Below, one piece after another: positions 37,741 to 64,000 of a DNA stretch of 64,000 nucleotides. This stretch comes from a virus (lineage: Duplodnaviria; Heunggongvirae; Uroviricota; Caudoviricetes). Location of the stretch: IMG/VR virus record IMGVR_UViG_2778261505_000002; one strand, written 5' to 3'. Both the position numbers and the translations under genes were made by a program. Position 1 is the stretch's first letter. Every line of letters starts with the position of its first letter. Under the pieces are notes generated by a model. It made no database searches. It was not told the origin of the DNA and saw nothing but the letters and a program-made list of their open reading frames with translations.

Positions 37741-38310
37741 ATGAGTAAAAAAATCAGCGTAGTTGGTGTTGATCCCTCAATGAGCAACTTTGGGCTTGCT
37801 GTGGGCACTTTAGACCTTGAGACGGACGAACTTGAGATTCACGGCCTTACTCTTGTTGAGACTAAAGCGGGGAGTAACAAAAAGACCGTTCGTGTGAACA
37901 GTGACGATCTGCGCCGAGCCAGTGAAATATGGCGTGTTGCGAAGCCAATCATTGATAAGGCAAATATGGTTTTTTGTGAGCTACCGGTTGGGAGCCAAAG
38001 CTCTCGTTCGCAGACGTCTTACGGTATTTGTATCGGTGTACTTGCGTGTGTGGATAAGCCATTGATCCAGGTTACTCCAAACGAAATTAAGCATTTTGTC
38101 GGCAATAAACTTACTACATCGAAAGAAGAGATTATCCAGTGGGCTACGAAAAAACACCCTAAAGCACCGTGGCTGCGTCGTAAGCAATCTGGACAGGATG
38201 TTCTCGTGAACAAAAACGAACATTTGGCTGATGCGGTGGCTGCCATCCATACCGGTATGCAAACAGATCAGTTCCGCCAGGTGCGCGATGTTCTTAAGTC
38301 TCTCATTTGA
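37741..38310 (+). CDS. RuvC-like Holliday junction resolvase
   Basis: 189 aa; VVGVDPSMSNFGLAV, FCELP and HLADAVAAIH correspond to RuvC catalytic segments. Confidence 0.65.
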   Translation: MSKKISVVGVDPSMSNFGLAVGTLDLETDELEIHGLTLVETKAGSNKKTVRVNSDDLRRASEIWRVAKPIIDKANMVFCELPVGSQSSRSQTSYGICIGVLACVDKPLIQVTPNEIKHFVGNKLTTSKEEIIQWATKKHPKAPWLRRKQSGQDVLVNKNEHLADAVAAIHTGMQTDQFRQVRDVLKSLI

Positions 38311-58432: not shown

Positions 58433-58959
58433 AATTTTCCAAATTTTCTGAGTTGGTGAATCGTATTTTGTCCAACAACCACAGCCATCGTCGAGATATG
58501 GATGTAACGATCGTTGTTCATTCGCCTGGTCGCATCGGTTCAACACCATCAGTTGAGGTTCAGTCAATTAAGGCGGGTTTTGATTGGGATGCCGGGCAAG
58601 TGATGATTTTTCCATCACAGCCACTGACCACGCTAACACCAGAGCAGGTTGCTGATATCACTGATAGTGTGCGCAAAGGTCAGTCTTGGCACGCGTATCA
58701 GGAATACAAGAAGCATAAAGAGCAGTTGGAAAAATTGTCGATGGAGTTGGAAGCCGCTAAACAGCGGGAAAAAGATCTGTTTATGGAAAATGTTCGACTT
58801 AAGTCAGGTATAGCCGGTCTGATACACCTCGGTATTCGATATGCGGATGTTGAGGTCATGAAAATTGCTGGAGATGCCCAGCTTTCTACTCCATGCACTG
58901 ACAGCATCATAAACAGCATTGCAGCAGGCATTTTAACCAAAGAGGGGTCAGCACGATGA
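58429..58959 (+). CDS. Hypothetical protein
   Basis: 176 aa from ATG 58429 (ATGA overlap with previous stop); coiled-coil segment. Confidence 0.45.
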
Positions 58960-59141
58960 GAACACTAGAAGTTCGCGCTGAAGACGTAATCCCTGGTGAT
59001 GTGCTCATAACATCTAAAGGTCAACAATGTGCGGTTAAATCTTTTTGGATGGAAGATGACAAAGTGACTCTGTTCGGTACGGATGGTTCCGAAACTGATT
59101 ATGACTACGACGAATTGCTTGTTGTTGAGAGAGCTGCCTAA
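58956..59141 (+). CDS. Hypothetical protein
   Basis: 61-aa ORF, translationally coupled to neighbours. Confidence 0.35.
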   Translation: MRTLEVRAEDVIPGDVLITSKGQQCAVKSFWMEDDKVTLFGTDGSETDYDYDELLVVERAA

Positions 59142-59794
59142 TGACCACCGTTAACAATAAGAAATGCTACCCAAGCGAGAAATATCTTAATGAGCTGATC
59201 GCCAACATTGAGTTTGCTGCAAGGGCACCAGTTGAAGTCGTGAGAGCGATTGCAGCAGAGCTACAGAAGCACCGTAAGGCCTATGCCAATACAGCCGCAT
59301 CTAAGGATGGTTGGATAAGCTGTAGTGAGCGAATGCCTGTAATTGGCGAGCTAAATTGGAGAACTAGTTTTCCTTTACTGGTTACGTGTGAGATCGGCGT
59401 TATACCTGCTTATTACGGCTTTGTGAGCGTTAATGGTGATAGGCATTATGGCTTTATGGAGAGTCTTAAATACGGAGACGATAACGGCAACCATCCTCAA
59501 ACTAATGAATATGGTCTGATTAGCAATGTCACACACTGGATGCCACTACCAGAACGCCGCAGGAGTCGAACAGTGAATAAAGCAGAGTTATTTCAGAAAA
59601 TATCGGCTCTCGCGACTGAATGCCACGCTATAGCATCTGAGCTTGATGTTGGCGATGAACGAACCGAGATGTTCGAAATATACAGTGTGCTGCGCAATCT
59701 CTGTCGGCGTGGCTACGCCACTCAAGTAGGGCGAATGACTAACCCACTACTCTCATCCTGTGATGAGGATGACTCGGATGAGGATGACGAATGA
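59141..59794 (+). CDS. DUF551-like phage protein
   Basis: 217 aa; HWMPLPE motif typical of DUF551 as I recall; acidic C-terminal tail. Confidence 0.45.
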   Translation: MTTVNNKKCYPSEKYLNELIANIEFAARAPVEVVRAIAAELQKHRKAYANTAASKDGWISCSERMPVIGELNWRTSFPLLVTCEIGVIPAYYGFVSVNGDRHYGFMESLKYGDDNGNHPQTNEYGLISNVTHWMPLPERRRSRTVNKAELFQKISALATECHAIASELDVGDERTEMFEIYSVLRNLCRRGYATQVGRMTNPLLSSCDEDDSDEDDE

Positions 59795-60462
59795 TGCATA
59801 AATCAGTAGCCGGTGAGCTTCAGAAGGAAGTCGATAATACTACCGTTCTATTGGACGATATTTTAAGCATTCTCGCGCTGCTTGAGGCTGGCGATTGGTC
59901 AGAACATTGCACTAAAACAGAGCTAGGCGGTCGGCTTGAAAGAGAGATTACACGACTTATTGGTGATGCGCAGGAAGCTACAGTCACTAGTTATGAGTTA
60001 ATCGCTGAAGCCTGGCGTTTGATGGATGGACAAGATCCTAAAACCAGCGATTGGCATAGCAAGGCTTCGAAGTATTTAAATTCCAATAGGGTAGAAAAAG
60101 TTGATGATGTGAAACCGAAGCCAGTAGACCACGGTTTCCGCGATAACTGCGAATGCTCTAGTTGCCAGACCACGGCCCGTATTTGTTCCGAATTGATAGA
60201 TAAGTCCAGCCTAATCTACGAAGTTAATGTAGGCGGTAATACATGGGTCGAATGCACAAGAGCTGCATACGTAAGAGCAAAAGACAAGGGTGAATTAACC
60301 AGAGTTGTTACCCATCACCCAAATAATGAGCTTAAAGATCACCAGATTAGAGAACTGGTGAACGAGTTGCGGGATATTGCGGTTCAGTACCACGGAGCGC
60401 AGCAATTGCGGGAGAAAATTGCCAGAGCAGTGAACAACTCAATTAGATCAGAAAGTATGTAG
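59791..60462 (+). CDS. Hypothetical protein
   Basis: 223-aa ORF; Cys cluster CECSSC; last + strand gene of the element in this window. Confidence 0.45.
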   Translation: MMHKSVAGELQKEVDNTTVLLDDILSILALLEAGDWSEHCTKTELGGRLEREITRLIGDAQEATVTSYELIAEAWRLMDGQDPKTSDWHSKASKYLNSNRVEKVDDVKPKPVDHGFRDNCECSSCQTTARICSELIDKSSLIYEVNVGGNTWVECTRAAYVRAKDKGELTRVVTHHPNNELKDHQIRELVNELRDIAVQYHGAQQLREKIARAVNNSIRSESM

Positions 60463-61220
60463 TCAATACAATAAAATGGCCCCATTTGGATGGGGCCGGT
60501 AACAACTAGCATTATGGGCGCTGGTTGACGTACTCAATGATCGCTTCGATGATTGCGAACATAGGCGGCACGATTTTGAAAAGTAAGTTAAGCACTATAG
60601 GCCTCACTTAGTTTTATCGCACCTAGCTGCAAATACCTTTGAGCTTGCCTTTGCAGTTGCAATATCTGTAGTCGCCAGATACTTACGGCACGATTTCGAG
60701 TTAAGGTAAGGTTTTAGAGTCACCAAAAACCTGGACTTAAATCTTCTTTGAGAACAACGATGTTTGGTAAATGGTCATTATTACCTAGCATGACGGCTCA
60801 ACGTTTCTTGATGAATCCAGTACATTCGGTTAATCTTAGCTCAGTCGCCAGATACTTATGGCTCAGGAACAGAGCCGCAAACTCTGTTTCCTTTTAAAAA
60901 GCCCAGCCTAGTCAACTGGGCTTTTTAATGTCTATTTTTAACCCAACATACCCTCAATACTGCAACATCAGTGTCTTGCGAATTAAGATAGTGTGAATAG
61001 ATTTTTCATGCAAGTGCATAAGCCTGTGGATAACTCAGGAAGGAAAAAGTGACTTCTGCGCACTTTAGACCGGACAAGGCGTTCGAAAAAGTCAATGGGA
61101 AGAAAAAATTTGTTAAAAATAACGTTTGTTTGAATTGTATATATTTATGCCTTTCAATAGTTAGCATCTTATTAACATCTTTTTTAAGAGATAGAGTTCA
61201 AAAATATATAGCTTCAATAT

Positions 61221-61241
61221 ACACTGTATGTGTATACAGTA
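61221..61241. promoter_or_regulatory. LexA (SOS) box
   Basis: TACACTGTATGTGTATACAGTA fits CTGT-N8-ACAG; 17 bp upstream of the UmuD'-like start codon. Confidence 0.65.
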
Positions 61242-61257
61242 TTAAGAGGCGAGTATT

Positions 61258-61647
61258 ATGGGCTTCCCTTCTCCTGCGGCGGATTATGCTGAGAGCCGTA
61301 TTTCTCTTGATCAGCAGATAATTAGACATCCTTCAGCGACCTACTTCATGAGGGCAGCTGATAGTCATCATCGTGAGGGAATATTACAGGGTGCATTGCT
61401 GGTGGTCGATTCCTCACTTACCCCGGTTGATGGTTCTCTGCTTGTATGCGCTCTGGATGGGGAATATCGCGTAAAAAGATACCGGAAGTACCCACGTCAG
61501 CATCTGGAGGATTTAAGAACCGGTAAGAAGGAAGCATTGCCAAAGGATGACGATGGATGCACGGGCAGCAATGCCGTGTTTGGTGTGATCACTCACATTA
61601 TCAACGACGCAAGAAGTGGCGAGTTTGATGATTGTCCCGTGATGTAG
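61258..61647 (+). CDS. UmuD'-like protein (S24 peptidase family, natively lacking the UmuD N-terminal pro-segment)
   Basis: 129 aa; begins MGFPSPAADYAE, aligning with UmuD from the post-cleavage Gly onward; GAGG RBS; no umuC-like gene downstream. Confidence 0.7.
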   Translation: MGFPSPAADYAESRISLDQQIIRHPSATYFMRAADSHHREGILQGALLVVDSSLTPVDGSLLVCALDGEYRVKRYRKYPRQHLEDLRTGKKEALPKDDDGCTGSNAVFGVITHIINDARSGEFDDCPVM

Positions 61648-61659
61648 GAGAACTGATTA

Positions 61660-61683
61660 GGCGGTGCAATGCACCGCCTTTTT
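61660..61683. terminator. Hairpin terminator between convergent UmuD'-like and apbC genes
   Basis: GGCGGTGC-AAT-GCACCGCC followed by TTTTT. Confidence 0.6.
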
Positions 61684-61684
61684 A

Positions 61685-62785
61685 TCACACTGCGCGGAAT
61701 GCGATTTCGCCAGGTATTACTTCACCTTGCCAATACATTTGGGCAGCAACGCGATCTGCGAGGTCACGATAAATAGCTGTAAATTCGCTATCTGGACGAC
61801 TAATAACGGTTGGTGTTCCGTTATCCAGATCTTCACGAAGAGAGATATGAAGTGGCATTTGGCCTAACAACTGCGTGTTGTATTTCTCGGCCAGTTTCTG
61901 TGCGCCACCGGTGCCAAAAATTGGCTCGTGATGACCGCAGTTACTGCAAATATGCACACTCATGTTTTCAACGATACCCAGTACCGGCACTTCGACTTTT
62001 TCGAACATCACAATGCCTTTCTTCGCATCGATCAGCGCGATGTCTTGCGGCGTAGTTACCACAACCGCACCAGTTACAGGAATGTTCTGCGCCAGCGTCA
62101 ACTGAATATCACCAGTGCCCGGCGGCATATCGAGAACAAGATAGTCCAGATCAGGCCACAATGTTTCCTGCAACATCTGCATCAGCGCCTTGCTGGCCAT
62201 CGGTCCACGCCACACCATTGCATTGTCGTCGGTGACCAGATAACCAATAGAGTTGGTTGCCAGGCCATGAGACATGATAGGTGCCATGTGAGTACCGTCA
62301 GGTGAGGTTGGACGTTGGTTTTCCGCGCCCAGCATGGTTGGAATTGATGGACCATAGATATCGGCATCCAAAATACCAACTTTCGCACCTTCAGCAGCCA
62401 ACGCCAGTGCCAGGTTTACCGCCGTGGAGGATTTACCCACGCCGCCCTTGCCTGAGCTGACGGCGATAATGTTCTTAACGCCATTAATGCCTGGTTGGTT
62501 TTTGACGCGCTTAAGCGTGGCAATGTTGTACGACAGCTTCCAGTCAATAGCCTTTGCGCCAGTGATACGGAGCAGATCACCACTACATTGCTCTTTCAGG
62601 TCTTCAAAAGGCTTATTCCACACGAAAGGCATGATTAGTTCGACATGCAGTGTGTCATCCATCAACGCAACATGGTGTAACGCTTTAAGCGTAGTCAGGT
62701 TGTGTTTCAGGGTTGGGTGCTGAAAATTAGCCAGCGTACCGGCTACCATTGCTCTCAGGGCATCCGGCGATTTGGACTCGCTCAT
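61685..62785 (-). CDS. apbC: Fe-S cluster carrier ATPase ApbC/Mrp
   Basis: 366 aa; near-identical to enterobacterial Mrp/ApbC as I recall it (P-loop SGKGGVGKSS, CxxC); divergent from metG as in enterobacterial chromosomes. Confidence 0.9.
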   Translation of the reverse strand: MSESKSPDALRAMVAGTLANFQHPTLKHNLTTLKALHHVALMDDTLHVELIMPFVWNKPFEDLKEQCSGDLLRITGAKAIDWKLSYNIATLKRVKNQPGINGVKNIIAVSSGKGGVGKSSTAVNLALALAAEGAKVGILDADIYGPSIPTMLGAENQRPTSPDGTHMAPIMSHGLATNSIGYLVTDDNAMVWRGPMASKALMQMLQETLWPDLDYLVLDMPPGTGDIQLTLAQNIPVTGAVVVTTPQDIALIDAKKGIVMFEKVEVPVLGIVENMSVHICSNCGHHEPIFGTGGAQKLAEKYNTQLLGQMPLHISLREDLDNGTPTVISRPDSEFTAIYRDLADRVAAQMYWQGEVIPGEIAFRAV

Positions 62786-62942
62786 CCCGTCTCCTTTATT
62801 TTAATTTGCGCAATTGTCGCCTTGTAGTGTACTCCAGCTACGACATTTAATCATTTATGAGAAATGCTGTTATCACATGGCAGACATAAGGCCATTTTGT
62901 TACTATCAAGCCCCTTTTCACTACAAAGAAGTAATGCCTACT

Positions 62943-64000
62943 ATGACCCAAGTCGCGAAGAAAATTCTGGTGACGTGCGCGCTGCCGTACGCTAACGGCT
63001 CAATCCACCTCGGCCATATGCTGGAGCACATCCAGGCTGATGTCTGGGTTCGTTACCAGCGAATGCGCGGCCACGAGGTTAATTTCATCTGTGCCGACGA
63101 TGCCCACGGTACGCCAATCATGCTGAAAGCACAGCAGCTTGGTATCACACCGGAACAGATGATTGGCGAAATGAGTCAGGAACATCAGACTGATTTCGCA
63201 GGCTTTAACATCAGCTATGACAACTATCACTCGACGCACAGCGAAGAGAACCGTCAGTTGTCCGAGCTTATCTATACTCGCCTGAAAGAGAACGGTTTTA
63301 TTAAAAACCGCACCATCTCTCAGCTGTACGACCCGGAAAAAGGCATGTTCCTGCCGGACCGTTTTGTAAAAGGTACATGCCCGAAATGTAAAGCGCCGGA
63401 TCAATACGGCGATAACTGTGAAGTCTGCGGCGCGACATACAGCCCGACGGAACTGATCGAGCCGAAATCAGTGGTTTCTGGCGCTACACCGGTAATGCGT
63501 GATTCCGAACACTTCTTCTTTGATCTGCCTTCTTTCAGCGAAATGTTGCAGGCATGGACCCGCAGCGGTGCGTTGCAGGAGCAGGTGGCAAACAAAATGC
63601 AGGAGTGGTTTGAATCTGGCCTGCAACAGTGGGATATCTCCCGTGACGCACCTTACTTCGGTTTTGAAATCCCGAACGCACCGGGCAAATACTTCTACGT
63701 CTGGCTGGACGCGCCGATTGGCTACATGGGTTCTTTCAAGAATCTGTGCGACAAACGCGGCGACACTACCAGCTTCGACGAATACTGGAAGAAAGACTCC
63801 ACCGCCGAGCTGTACCACTTCATCGGCAAAGATATCGTTTACTTCCACAGCCTGTTCTGGCCTGCCATGCTGGAAGGCAGCAACTTCCGCAAGCCGACCA
63901 ACCTGTTTGTTCACGGCTATGTGACGGTGAACGGCGCGAAGATGTCCAAGTCTCGCGGCACCTTTATTAAAGCCAGCACCTGGCTGAATCATTTTGACGC
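62943..64000 (+). CDS. metG: Methionyl-tRNA synthetase, 5' partial (runs off window end)
   Basis: Translation from ATG 62943 gives [29 protein letters not shown] with HLGH motif and zinc knuckle CPKC...CEVCG; open to window end; absent from the ORF track because it has no stop. Confidence 0.9.

What the first reader, a model, noticed from the sequence alone, without database searches (positions are those of the whole stretch)
60463..61220. Element-to-chromosome boundary zone with 20-bp direct repeats, a perfect DnaA box and tandem hairpins but no gene
Between the last element gene and the UmuD'-like gene lie ~760 bp containing AGTCGCCAGATACTTA(C/T)GGC twice (60670 and 60843), a consensus DnaA box TGTGGATAA (61025-61033), and terminator-like hairpins (60478-60497; GGAACAGAG...CTCTGTTCC and AAGCCCAG...CTGGGCTTTTT near 60865-60925). 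This may contain the attachment junction, a small RNA gene, or remnants of integration.
Basis: seen in the sequence. Interest (0 to 1): 0.5.

Follow-up and report, generated by a model that had tools for sequence, protein, structure and literature searches.

The report
Unannotated toxin–antitoxin-like RNA module in phage-plasmid
The "gene-free boundary zone" is an internal cargo slot of a phage-plasmid that holds an unannotated small RNA paired with a 27-residue membrane-type peptide gene (built like the tisB/istR toxin–antitoxin systems), a borrowed copy of the host nrdA promoter that supplies the DnaA box, and the SOS operator of humD.

Summary
Window 58759-64000, including 'apbC' and metG, is collinear with sequenced phages (Cyrano, PhiR41_1) and with about 110-kb circular E. 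coli plasmids. The apbC-metG block is a host-like segment carried inside the phage-plasmid.

The 795-bp gap has three parts.
   - An ~86-nt sRNA lies on the + strand (conserved promoter, three hairpins, terminator).
   - A divergent minus-strand mRNA encodes a conserved 27-aa hydrophobic peptide.
   - The two "20-bp direct repeats" are the sRNA 5' end and its target in the mRNA 5' UTR. They co-vary across homologues, and their mismatches are all G·U-compatible.
2. **60985-61123: a copy of the E. coli nrdA promoter region, 84% identical, on the minus strand.** This explains the DnaA box, which is already annotated in P1.
3. **61224-61239: the LexA box of humD.**

No Rfam, Pfam, NCBIfam, PHROGs or PADLOC family matches the sRNA or the peptide, and RefSeq leaves the module unannotated. 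Toxicity and repression have not been tested. I rate it a new family of a known kind, of moderate interest.

The parts
60478..60497 (-). Intrinsic terminator of the peptide (toxin-like) mRNA: GGCCCCAUCCAAAUGGGGCC followed by AUUUUAUU.
   Evidence: scores it as a terminator on the minus strand only. Every homologue has an equivalent GC hairpin after its last small ORF.
60512..60595 (-). Small ORF of 27 codons plus stop: (GTG)MLNLLFKIVPPMFAIIEAIIEYVNQRP. It is hydrophobic and is the candidate type I toxin.
   Evidence: The reading frame, length and C-terminus are conserved in homologues only ~60% identical in DNA, and the start is ATG in most relatives. Variable sites by codon position are 5/1/13, and 12 of 18 variable codons are purely synonymous. 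GRAVY is 0.86.
60602..60607 (-). Shine-Dalgarno region GUGAGG, 6 nt upstream of the start codon. It sits in a predicted local hairpin.
   Evidence: Conserved as GTGAGG or GTAAGG in the homologues. The predicted probability that it is unpaired is 0.03-0.5.
60616..60623 (-). Element GGUGCGAU. It can pair either with AUCGUGCC at 60694-60687 (next to the sRNA target) or with AUCGUGCC at 60576-60569 inside the ORF. Those two partners are the second direct repeat (D4).
   Evidence: repeat D4. Both helices are kept across 12 homologues, at 91.7% and 84.4% of cells paired. Its functional role was not resolved.
60627..60656 (-). Invariant 5'-UTR hairpin CUGCAAA...UUUGCAG.
   Evidence: All 7 pairs are identical in 12 homologues. 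It served as the search pattern that recovered 29 further loci.
60670..60689 (-). Target site of the sRNA in the mRNA 5' UTR (GCCGUAAGUAUCUGGCGACU), 74 nt upstream of the start codon. Its 3' half forms a small hairpin with GCGACUA in the loop.
   Evidence: Repeat copy 1. It co-varies with the sRNA copy. Duplex energy is -38.5 kcal/mol against -17.5±2.9 for shuffles. The target hairpin is conserved.
60709..60732 (-). 5'-proximal hairpin of the mRNA (AGGUUUU...AAAACCU).
   Evidence: It has compensatory changes, with 9 G·U cells when read on the minus strand and 0 when read on the + strand.
60748..60778 (-). Putative weak promoter of the peptide mRNA (ATGACC / TGtTCTCAA). This is inferred by position only.
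   Evidence: At the equivalent place homologues L004, L020, L021 and L028 have a good promoter, TTGAGA or TTTAGA, 16 nt, TGaTTTAAA. The window's version is poor and was not found.
60808..60836 (+). sRNA promoter: -35 TTGATG, 17-nt spacer, -10 TAATCT. The predicted +1 is A60843, the first base of the repeat.
   Evidence: Read directly from the sequence. TTG...TAAnnT is conserved in all homologues, with TTGAAG / TAAGCT the commonest form.
60843..60928 (+). sRNA of ~86 nt, the candidate antitoxin. It has a 5' seed (repeat copy 2, 60843-60862) partly held in a small hairpin, a middle hairpin at 60865-60892, and a terminator hairpin with a U-run.
   Evidence: Its fold has z = -5.6. RNAalifold gives three hairpins, with 4 pairs showing compensatory change. 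There are 26 G·U cells on the + strand against 4 on the opposite strand. Rfam gives only sub-threshold AgrB, 27.6 bits against a gathering score of 40.
60894..60928 (.). Perfectly symmetrical bidirectional terminator, UUAAAAAGCCCAG...CUGGGCUUUUUAA. It is shared by the sRNA (+ strand) and by anything transcribed from the nrdA-like promoter (minus strand).
   Evidence: inverted repeat I3, 13 nt, 100% complementary.
60985..61123 (-). Copy of the E. coli nrdA promoter and upstream regulatory region. It has -10 TATCTT at 60990-60985, -35 TTGCAT at 61013-61008, DnaA box 2 TTATGCACT at 61021-61013 and the perfect DnaA box TTATCCACA at 61033-61025. It fires toward lower coordinates.
   Evidence: 84% identity over 140 nt to K-12 nrdA upstream DNA, ending at the -10 hexamer. 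A shorter copy in P1 is annotated 'nrdA-like promoter' and 'dnaA box'.
61224..61239 (+). LexA (SOS) operator CTGTATGTGTATACAG, just upstream of humD.
   Evidence: Perfect CTGT-N8-ACAG, and the only one within ≤1 mismatch in 60463-61257. It aligns with the LexA binding site annotated in P1 upstream of humD.
61258..61647 (+). humD (UmuD'-like S24 peptidase), the right-hand flank.
   Evidence: 83% DNA identity to P1 humD. RefSeq annotates it as 'HumD family translesion DNA polymerase'.

Best explanation
The 795-bp gap is a mosaic accessory slot inside a phage-plasmid of the Cyrano / CMS-2020a / PhiR41_1 kind, which is about 110 kb and also occurs as plasmids in E. coli.

**The module.** Its left 460 bp form a self-contained module with the architecture of the divergently transcribed type I toxin-antitoxin systems (tisB/istR-1, zorO/orzO, dinQ/agrB).
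- On the + strand, a conserved sigma-70 promoter drives an ~86-nt sRNA. Its first 20 nt are repeat copy 2.
- On the minus strand, an mRNA of about 260 nt carries the complementary 20 nt (repeat copy 1) in its 5' UTR.
- That target sits 74 nt upstream of a structurally sequestered Shine-Dalgarno and start codon for a 27-aa hydrophobic peptide.

**What is shown.** The sRNA gene, the translated and conserved peptide, and the selected RNA-RNA complementarity are shown by comparative evidence.

**What is inferred.**
- The peptide is a membrane-active toxin.
- sRNA pairing keeps it off. Because the site is far from the ribosome-binding site, this would work by blocking a standby or ribosome-loading region and/or by triggering RNase III cleavage of the duplex.
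- The module stabilises the element (post-segregational killing) or acts in phage-host conflict.

**The rest of the gap.**
- A captured nrdA-type promoter with its two DnaA boxes points at the shared bidirectional terminator.
- An AT-rich spacer follows.
- Last comes the LexA operator of humD.
For: **Context**
- Searches place the region inside circular plasmids and sequenced phages.
- In the 96%-identical phage PhiR41_1, window 60441-61256 is replaced wholesale by other DNA, so this is a variable cargo slot.
- The same module sits in unannotated gaps of unrelated Citrobacter, Klebsiella and E. coli plasmids and in a lambdoid prophage.

**sRNA**
- Its fold has z = -5.6.
- RNAalifold gives three hairpins with compensatory pairs.
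- The -35/-10 hexamers are conserved, and the predicted +1 falls on the first base of the repeat.
- The excess of G·U pairs is specific to the + strand, 26 against 4.

**Peptide**
- The frame, start and C-terminus are conserved at ~60% DNA identity.
- Variable sites fall 5/1/13 by codon position.
- Paralogous tandem ORFs occur in homologues.

**Pairing**
- The two repeat copies change together in different lineages: TAAG to AATG, TTGTTAACCGG, and GGCAGC.
- Every transition mismatch between the copies is of the G·U-compatible kind, at 4 positions.
- The cognate duplex is -38.5 kcal/mol against -17.5±2.9 for shuffles, and the Klebsiella variant is orthogonal.
- The distance from the target to the start codon is conserved at 70-75 nt.

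**Transcription of the UTR on the minus strand**
- G·U cells number 9 against 0 in the 5' hairpin, and 14 against 2 in the helix between the upstream AUCGUGCC copy and GGUGCGAU.

**DnaA box and LexA box**
-.
Against: - There is no expression, toxicity or rescue data. Everything rests on comparative sequence analysis.
- The peptide is less hydrophobic than TisB, DinQ, ShoB or ZorO, with GRAVY 0.86-1.2 against 1.4-1.8.
- No convincing promoter for the peptide mRNA is found in the window itself.
- Modelling the sRNA-bound state did not change predicted Shine-Dalgarno accessibility, so the repression step is not explained structurally.
- The covariation counts rest on about 12 distinct sequences from a few lineages. 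The G·U-direction argument has only 4 independent positions (P about 0.06).
Confidence: 0.7

Rival explanations
1. sRNA-regulated small membrane protein that is not a toxin-antitoxin pair. The peptide would have a phage or plasmid function such as superinfection exclusion, lysis timing or modulation of a transporter. The sRNA would simply tune it, or would mainly act on host targets in trans.
For: - The sRNA, the peptide and the pairing are all supported, but toxicity is not tested.
- The peptide is less hydrophobic than classical type I toxins.
- The module lies among phage early accessory 'ea' genes.
Against: - The layout matches the known divergent type I TA loci point for point: a divergent sRNA, a 5'-UTR target far from a sequestered ribosome-binding site, a peptide under 30 aa, and tandem toxin paralogues.
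- It moves as a self-contained cassette between unrelated plasmids.
- The sRNA seed has no other match in the 64-kb window.
Confidence: 0.2
2. Iteron-type replication origin or control region. The DnaA box, the 20-bp direct repeats and the AT-rich stretch (61124-61215) would together act as a plasmid ori or as incompatibility repeats bound by a Rep protein.
For: - A DnaA box, direct repeats and an AT-rich segment do co-occur within 600 bp.
- In one Citrobacter plasmid the module lies about 650 bp from a RepB gene.
- Co-variation of the repeats could in principle track a DNA-binding protein.
Against: - There are only two repeat copies, 173 bp apart, with no third copy.
- The copies sit at the 5' end of a terminator-bearing structured RNA and in a structured UTR.
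- The mismatches are all G·U-compatible.
- The DnaA box belongs to a 140-nt block homologous to the nrdA promoter. That block is absent from the other homologues of the module.
- Phage PhiR41_1 lacks the whole region yet is a complete phage genome.
Confidence: 0.04
3. Attachment junction or integration scar between a mobile element and the chromosome.
For: DNA to the right (61689-64000) is 86.6% identical to K-12 mrp-metG. Direct repeats are a classic att signature.
Against: - The region and both flanks are contiguous inside circular ~110-kb plasmids and in phage genomes that carry their own apbC and metG.
- The host-like block starts at 61689, beyond humD and not within the finding.
- There is no further copy of the repeat in the window.
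- The repeats are explained by RNA pairing.
Confidence: 0.02
4. Two tandem sRNA paralogues on the + strand, like agrA/agrB. Repeat copy 1 would be the 5' end of a second, degenerate sRNA rather than an mRNA target.
For: The sRNA covariance model gives a weak match at 60670-60742 on the + strand (20.1 bits). A poor promoter-like TTGAGC-18-TATCTG precedes copy 1 (read from the sequence).
Against: - No terminator follows copy 1 on the + strand.
- The helices around copy 1 carry G·U pairs only when read on the minus strand.
- A conserved Shine-Dalgarno, ORF and terminator lie downstream on the minus strand.
Confidence: 0.04

Closest known systems
tisB/istR-1 (E. coli type I TA)
   Same: - The toxin and sRNA genes are transcribed divergently.
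- The pairing region appears in DNA as a ~20-nt direct repeat with one transition that gives G·U. In K-12 this is GCACACTGT(A/G)TTATGTCAACA.
- The target lies far upstream of a structurally sequestered ribosome-binding site: about 100 nt in tisB (PMC7708055), 74 nt here.
- The peptide is a similar length: TisB has 29 aa, this one 27.
- There is a weak ungapped peptide resemblance, LLFKIVPPMFAIIEAIIEY against LILKLIVAALQLLDAVLKY, with z = 4.6 against shuffles.
   Different: - No DNA or profile similarity.
- No IstR match in Rfam and none with the sRNA covariance model.
- No LexA box at the toxin promoter.
- No tisA-like upstream ORF was noted.
- This module is carried on phage-plasmids, plasmids and a prophage, not at a fixed chromosomal site.
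zorO/orzO and dinQ/agrB (E. coli type I TA)
   Same: - The geometry is the same.
- The sRNAs are about 80-86 nt with a 5' seed, an internal hairpin and a terminator.
- There are sub-threshold matches in both directions. Rfam AgrB hits the window sRNA at 27.6 bits and Rfam OrzO-P hits the L004 homologue at 34.2 bits.
- The model built from this sRNA picks out OrzO (28 bits), AgrB and AgrA (about 20.5 bits each) at their annotated coordinates and strand.
- These loci also come as tandem duplicated units: zorO/zorP pairs and agrA/agrB.
   Different: - The scores are below the Rfam gathering thresholds of 40 and 60.
- There is no mRNA or DNA profile similarity.
- The peptides are unrelated to DinQ and ZorO (z < 2).
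- dinQ is LexA-controlled and this module is not.
- Here the duplication affects the toxin ORF inside one mRNA (ORF1 plus ORF2) under a single sRNA, not the whole TA unit or the sRNA.
hok/sok-type plasmid type I TA
   Same: It is carried by plasmids and phage-plasmids, so its likely role is post-segregational killing. It combines a small hydrophobic peptide, an antisense RNA and a highly structured mRNA.
   Different: - In hok/sok the antisense RNA overlaps its target in cis and acts through the overlapping mok reading frame (general knowledge).
- Here the sRNA gene does not overlap the mRNA, and the pairing is limited to 20-25 nt.
- There is no sok or hok Rfam match in the window.
nrdA promoter with DnaA boxes; 'nrdA-like promoter' of phage P1
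   Same: - Window 60985-61123 is 84% identical to K-12 DNA from about -145 to the -10 hexamer of nrdA, and both DnaA boxes are kept.
- P1 carries a shorter copy upstream of hot/humD, annotated in M95666 and NC_005856.
   Different: - Homology stops at the -10 hexamer, so only the promoter and regulatory DNA was captured, not the nrdA leader or gene.
- Here it points at a bidirectional terminator about 50 nt downstream.
- P1's hot and lxr genes are absent.

Membership tests
Type I toxin-antitoxin systems (class) | Small (<60 aa) hydrophobic peptide ORF under purifying selection | tested here: met
   The 27-aa ORF is conserved down to ~60% DNA identity. Variable sites by codon position are 5/1/13. 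GRAVY is 0.86-1.23.
Type I toxin-antitoxin systems (class) | Adjacent sRNA gene with extended complementarity to the toxin mRNA | tested here: met
   The sRNA is supported by its promoter, structure and terminator. The 20-25-nt complementarity co-varies. Duplex energy is -38.5 kcal/mol against -17.5±2.9 for shuffles.
Type I toxin-antitoxin systems (class) | The peptide is toxic when overproduced, and the sRNA prevents its synthesis | not testable with these tools
   This needs expression and rescue experiments.
tisB/istR-1 | IstR sRNA family (Rfam) and a TisB-like peptide | tested here: inconclusive
   There is no IstR match. The peptide resemblance to TisB has z = 4.6, which is suggestive only. 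No DNA profile hit on the K-12 locus.
tisB/istR-1 and dinQ/agrB | LexA box controlling the toxin promoter (SOS induction) | tested here: not met
   The only CTGT-N8-ACAG (≤1 mismatch) in 60463-61257 is at 61224-61239. That is the humD operator, about 480 bp from the putative toxin promoter.
dinQ/agrB | AgrB Rfam model RF02891 at its gathering score; DinQ-like peptide | tested here: not met
   27.6 bits against a gathering score of 40. The loop similarity is not conserved in homologues. DinQ comparison gives z = 0.1. No profile hit.
zorO/orzO | OrzO-P Rfam model RF02083 at its gathering score; ZorO-like peptide and 5' UTR | tested here: not met
   There is no OrzO-P hit in the window. The L004 homologue scores 34.2 bits against a gathering score of 60. 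No similarity to the Nissle zorO locus beyond the terminator. ZorO comparison gives z = 1.4.
Integrative-element attachment junction | The repeat is present at both ends of the element, the flank is element-free chromosome, and the sequence is absent from circular copies | tested here: not met
   The region is internal to circular plasmids and phage genomes. There is no further copy of the repeat in the window.
Iteron plasmid origin | An array of three or more regularly spaced iterons next to a rep gene, with a DnaA box and an AT-rich region | tested here: not met
   There are two copies, 173 bp apart. The DnaA box lies in a block homologous to the nrdA promoter. No rep gene is adjacent in the window.
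nrdA-type DnaA-box promoter (as annotated in P1) | Sequence homology to the nrdA upstream region, including both DnaA boxes and the -35/-10 hexamers | tested here: met
   84% identity over 140 nt to K-12, and 76% over 105 nt to P1. Promoter activity and DnaA binding were not tested.
LexA (SOS) operator | CTGT-N8-ACAG palindrome in front of an SOS gene | tested here: met
   A perfect box lies at 61224-61239. It aligns with P1's annotated LexA site upstream of humD.

The most novel reading that the evidence does not exclude
The module could be a mobile member of a wider superfamily that also includes the chromosomal zor/orz and dinQ/agr loci, and perhaps tisB. That would make phage-plasmids a reservoir or origin for the 'chromosome-only' divergent type I TA systems.

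In the window lineage the module would also be wired to replication and dNTP status. The captured DnaA-box nrdA promoter fires convergently into the antitoxin gene. Read-through or transcriptional collision when DnaA repression is lifted would then lower the sRNA and release the toxin.
Probability: 0.1. Interest if true: 0.75.

Novelty: new member of a known kind. Interest (0 to 1): 0.5.

Why it matters
Divergently encoded type I TA systems that target the 5' UTR (tisB, zorO, dinQ, shoB) are regarded as chromosomal and poorly mobile (PMC5367252, PMC11264685). This cassette has the same design, but its sequence is unrelated or only faintly related to them. It travels on phage-plasmids, conjugative plasmids and a lambdoid prophage of Enterobacteriaceae, and it is absent from the annotation of every record I inspected and of all but two listed in the searches.

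If it is toxic, it is a maintenance or conflict module on about 2% of complete E. coli genomes (115 of 5,426). It also offers natural specificity variants of the seed and one-, two- or alternative-toxin versions, which would be useful for studying how sRNA-toxin specificity evolves.

The case also shows that host-derived genes (apbC-metG) and a host promoter inside a phage-plasmid can look like a chromosome junction.

Tried and rejected
1. **RNA switch.** I tested whether sRNA binding frees GGUGCGAU to close the Shine-Dalgarno hairpin. Both alternative helices are conserved. Partition-function folding with the target blocked left Shine-Dalgarno accessibility unchanged in all 10 homologues, so this stays unresolved and is not claimed.
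2. **AgrB or OrzO membership.** The matches are sub-threshold only, and the AgrB-like loop is not conserved.
3. **DNA or profile homology to known loci.** nhmmer and blastn against K-12 dinQ/agrAB, tisB/istR and shoB/ohsC and against Nissle zorO/orzO found nothing.
4. **Protein families for the peptides.** Pfam, NCBIfam, PHROGs and PADLOC gave nothing. The exact look-up returned only 'hypothetical protein'. tblastn with ZorO against plasmids found no match.
5. **A second sRNA from the nrdA-like promoter (60978-60893, minus strand).** It folds only through the shared terminator. It has no significant complementarity to the toxin mRNA, the sRNA or the humD leader, with z between -1.7 and +0.9. 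The 28-bit covariance-model hit there is mostly the palindromic terminator.
6. **A P1-type late promoter in the AT-rich spacer.** No convincing match.
7. **A LexA box for the toxin.** None found.
8. **Literature.** Searches by topic and by peptide strings found no description of this module. The library does not cover subscription journals.
Full report
**Observation.** The listed features are all present.
- The 20-mer AGTCGCCAGATACTTA(C/T)GGC occurs at 60670 and 60843 and nowhere else in the 64 kb, even with three mismatches allowed (0.01 expected).
- TGTGGATAA lies at 61025-61033.
- There is a GC hairpin at 60478-60497. A hairpin at 60867-60892 has one bulge. A perfectly symmetrical terminator lies at 60894-60928.
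- The gap between ORFs of ordinary size runs from 60463 to 61257.
- The statements 'no gene' and 'boundary' do not hold.

**Context.**
- Window 60400-61700 is 96-99% identical to the interior of many circular E. coli plasmids of about 110 kb. It is 99.5% and 94.5% identical to phages CMS-2020a and Cyrano.
- In Cyrano the order is ea-type genes, the gap, an S24 peptidase, a MinD/ApbC-like gene, MetRS and then further phage genes. Window 58759-64000 is collinear with it at 97.1%.
- Phage PhiR41_1 has 96%-identical flanks. It replaces exactly window 60441-61256 with other DNA, namely a 525-bp ORF and a different LexA box. The gap is therefore a variable cargo slot inside a phage-plasmid.
- The impression of 'chromosome' has a cause. 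Window 61689-64000 is 86.6% identical to K-12 mrp-metG. This is a host-like block that these phages carry, and it begins beyond humD, outside the finding.

**Left part (60470-60930): a module with type I TA architecture.** Distant copies at 67-76% identity lie in unannotated gaps of otherwise unrelated E. coli, Citrobacter and Klebsiella plasmids. A scan with the invariant UTR hairpin recovered 29 more loci, which gave 25 distinct modules in all.

*The sRNA (+ strand).*
- A promoter (TTGATG, 17 nt, TAATCT; 60808-60836) is conserved as TTG...TAAnnT in every homologue. It predicts a start at A60843, the first base of repeat copy 2.
- The 86-nt RNA folds into three hairpins with z = -5.6.
- RNAalifold on 12 distinct sequences keeps all three hairpins, with compensatory changes at 4 pairs.
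- Its helices hold 26 G·U cells when read on the + strand and 4 when read on the other strand.

*The mRNA and peptide (minus strand).*
- The homologues share a 5' hairpin, a small hairpin that presents part of the target in its loop, an invariant CUGCAAA/UUUGCAG hairpin, a GUGAGG Shine-Dalgarno and a small ORF followed by a terminator.
- The window ORF (60595-60512) encodes MLNLLFKIVPPMFAIIEAIIEYVNQRP.
- Most relatives have ATG where the window has GTG.
- Among six distinct sequences of this type, variable sites fall 5/1/13 by codon position, and 12 of 18 variable codons are synonymous.
- Other homologues carry a paralogous ORF1 (MQMLLLFLKLAHPVAVIIMTLLGYWKDR) followed by an ORF2 resembling the window peptide, or ORF1 alone.
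- The UTR helices carry G·U pairs only on the minus strand, 9 against 0 and 14 against 2.

**The repeats are an RNA-RNA pairing site.**
- Because the two genes diverge, complementarity between the RNAs appears as a direct repeat in DNA. The same is true at tisB/istR-1, dinQ/agrAB and zorO/orzO.
- Across lineages the two copies change together: TAAG to AATG, a TTGTTAACCGG variant in Klebsiella, and a GGCAGC variant in Citrobacter.
- The transition differences between the copies, at four positions, are all in the direction that gives G·U rather than A·C.
- The cognate duplex is -38.5 kcal/mol against -17.5±2.9 for shuffled seeds. The Klebsiella pair is predicted to be orthogonal to the others.
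- The target ends 70-75 nt upstream of the start codon in every homologue, and the Shine-Dalgarno sits in a local hairpin.

**Mechanism.**
- Shown by comparison: an sRNA gene, a translated peptide under selection, and selected complementarity between the sRNA 5' end and the mRNA 5' UTR.
- Inferred: the peptide is a membrane toxin, and the sRNA blocks its synthesis at a distance. As in tisB (PMC7708055) and zorO (PMC11264685), this would work by occupying a ribosome standby or loading region and/or by RNase III cleavage.
- I also tested a switch idea. GGUGCGAT (60623-60616) can pair with either copy of a second repeat, AUCGUGCC. One copy is next to the target and the other is inside the ORF, and both helices are conserved. 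Blocking the target in silico does not alter Shine-Dalgarno accessibility, so I leave this open.
- The promoter of the peptide mRNA is clear in several homologues (TTGAGA, 16 nt, TGaTTTAAA) but weak in the window.

**Middle part: the DnaA box.**
- Window 60985-61123 is 84% identical over 140 nt to the K-12 nrdA upstream region, in minus orientation. The homology ends at the -10 hexamer.
- It keeps the perfect box (61033-61025), the second box TTATGCACT (61021-61013), and -35 TTGCAT and -10 TATCTT with a 17-nt spacer.
- P1 has a shorter copy, annotated since the 1990s as an 'nrdA-like promoter' with a 'dnaA box', upstream of hot-lxr-humD. The hot and lxr genes are missing here.
- The promoter points at the bidirectional terminator about 50 nt away. 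The ~85-nt RNA it would make shows no meaningful complementarity to its neighbours. What this promoter is for remains unexplained.

**Right part.** CTGTATGTGTATACAG (61224-61239) is the LexA operator of humD. It aligns with P1's annotated site and is the only such box in the gap.

**Comparison with known systems.**
- The architecture is that of the divergent type I TA loci.
- Membership in any named family fails. Rfam gives AgrB at 27.6 bits (gathering score 40) in the window. In a homologue it gives OrzO-P at 34.2 bits (gathering score 60).
- DNA profiles find nothing in the K-12 or Nissle loci.
- The peptides match no Pfam, NCBIfam, PHROGs or PADLOC model.
- Two leads remain. First, a covariance model of this sRNA picks out OrzO, AgrB and AgrA at their annotated positions with 20-28 bits, but does not pick out IstR-1 or OhsC. 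Second, the peptide resembles TisB weakly, with z = 4.6.
- A 2024 paper noted an unexplained similarity between zor 5' UTRs and plasmid dinQ-like loci (PMC11264685). A distant superfamily is therefore possible but not shown.

**Novelty and verdict.**
- RefSeq annotates nothing under the module in 116 E. coli records. In PLSDB the listed records show 'hypothetical protein' under it only twice.
- The exact look-up returns only 'hypothetical protein'.
- Text searches found no description.
- I rate it a new family of a known kind. It is well supported as an sRNA/small-ORF pair and plausible but untested as a toxin-antitoxin system.
- The junction interpretation is rejected, and the DnaA and LexA boxes are explained by homology.

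Noticed in passing
window 61689-64000: The apbC (mrp)-metG divergent gene pair is 86.6% identical in DNA to K-12 mrp-metG. It is carried inside the phage-plasmid, and also in phages Cyrano and PhiR41_1. So a phage carries its own methionyl-tRNA synthetase and Fe-S carrier, apparently captured from an enterobacterial chromosome.
   Followed up: partly
window 60893-60978 (minus strand): The captured nrdA-type promoter would produce an RNA of about 85 nt that ends at the shared bidirectional terminator, convergent with the sRNA gene. It has no ORF and no significant complementarity to its neighbours. Its purpose is unexplained.
   Followed up: partly
L004:2260-2870, L006, L007, L008, L020 (homologues): Distant versions of the module carry two tandem paralogous small ORFs on one mRNA, each with its own Shine-Dalgarno: ORF1 of 28 aa and ORF2 of 26 aa. 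L005 has only ORF1 and the window has only the ORF2 type. The toxin part is therefore modular.
   Followed up: yes
L044 (E. coli PK6 chromosome 1465443-1473984): The same module lies in a chromosomal lambdoid prophage (kil, erf, anti-RecBCD, torI near dsdC). An ISKox3 is inserted just beyond it and humD is truncated. The cassette therefore also travels in integrated prophages.
   Followed up: partly
L041 (phage PhiR41_1) 1542-2440: A closely related phage replaces window 60441-61256 with a different 525-bp ORF and a different LexA box (TACTGTACAGATAAACAGTA) in front of humD. The LexA control is kept although the DNA is swapped.
   Followed up: partly
L009 (JAEWTL010000044.1, labelled 'Bacillota bacterium' MAG): A contig assigned to a Bacillota MAG carries a 93%-identical copy of this E. 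coli phage-plasmid region. It is probably a mis-binned or contaminant contig.
   Followed up: no
L042 (E. coli Nissle yehK-yehL) and L043 (K-12 mrp-metG-yehF-yehH): The chromosomal zorO/orzO locus sits between yehK and yehL. By my knowledge of the K-12 map, that is only about 10 kb from mrp-metG, the same gene pair that neighbours this module on the phage-plasmid. I take this as coincidence, but did not examine it.
   Followed up: no
L006:4919-5058 (Klebsiella IncFIB plasmid): There is a near-threshold sok antitoxin match (50 bits, gathering score 59) about 2 kb from the module, next to an IS3 transposase. A second type I system may lie in the same plasmid region.
   Followed up: no
window 38049-38057 (minus strand) and 11978-11993: A second perfect DnaA box TTATCCACA lies at 38049, and a second perfect LexA-type palindrome CTGTTTACTTATACAG lies at 11978. 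Neither was examined.
   Followed up: no
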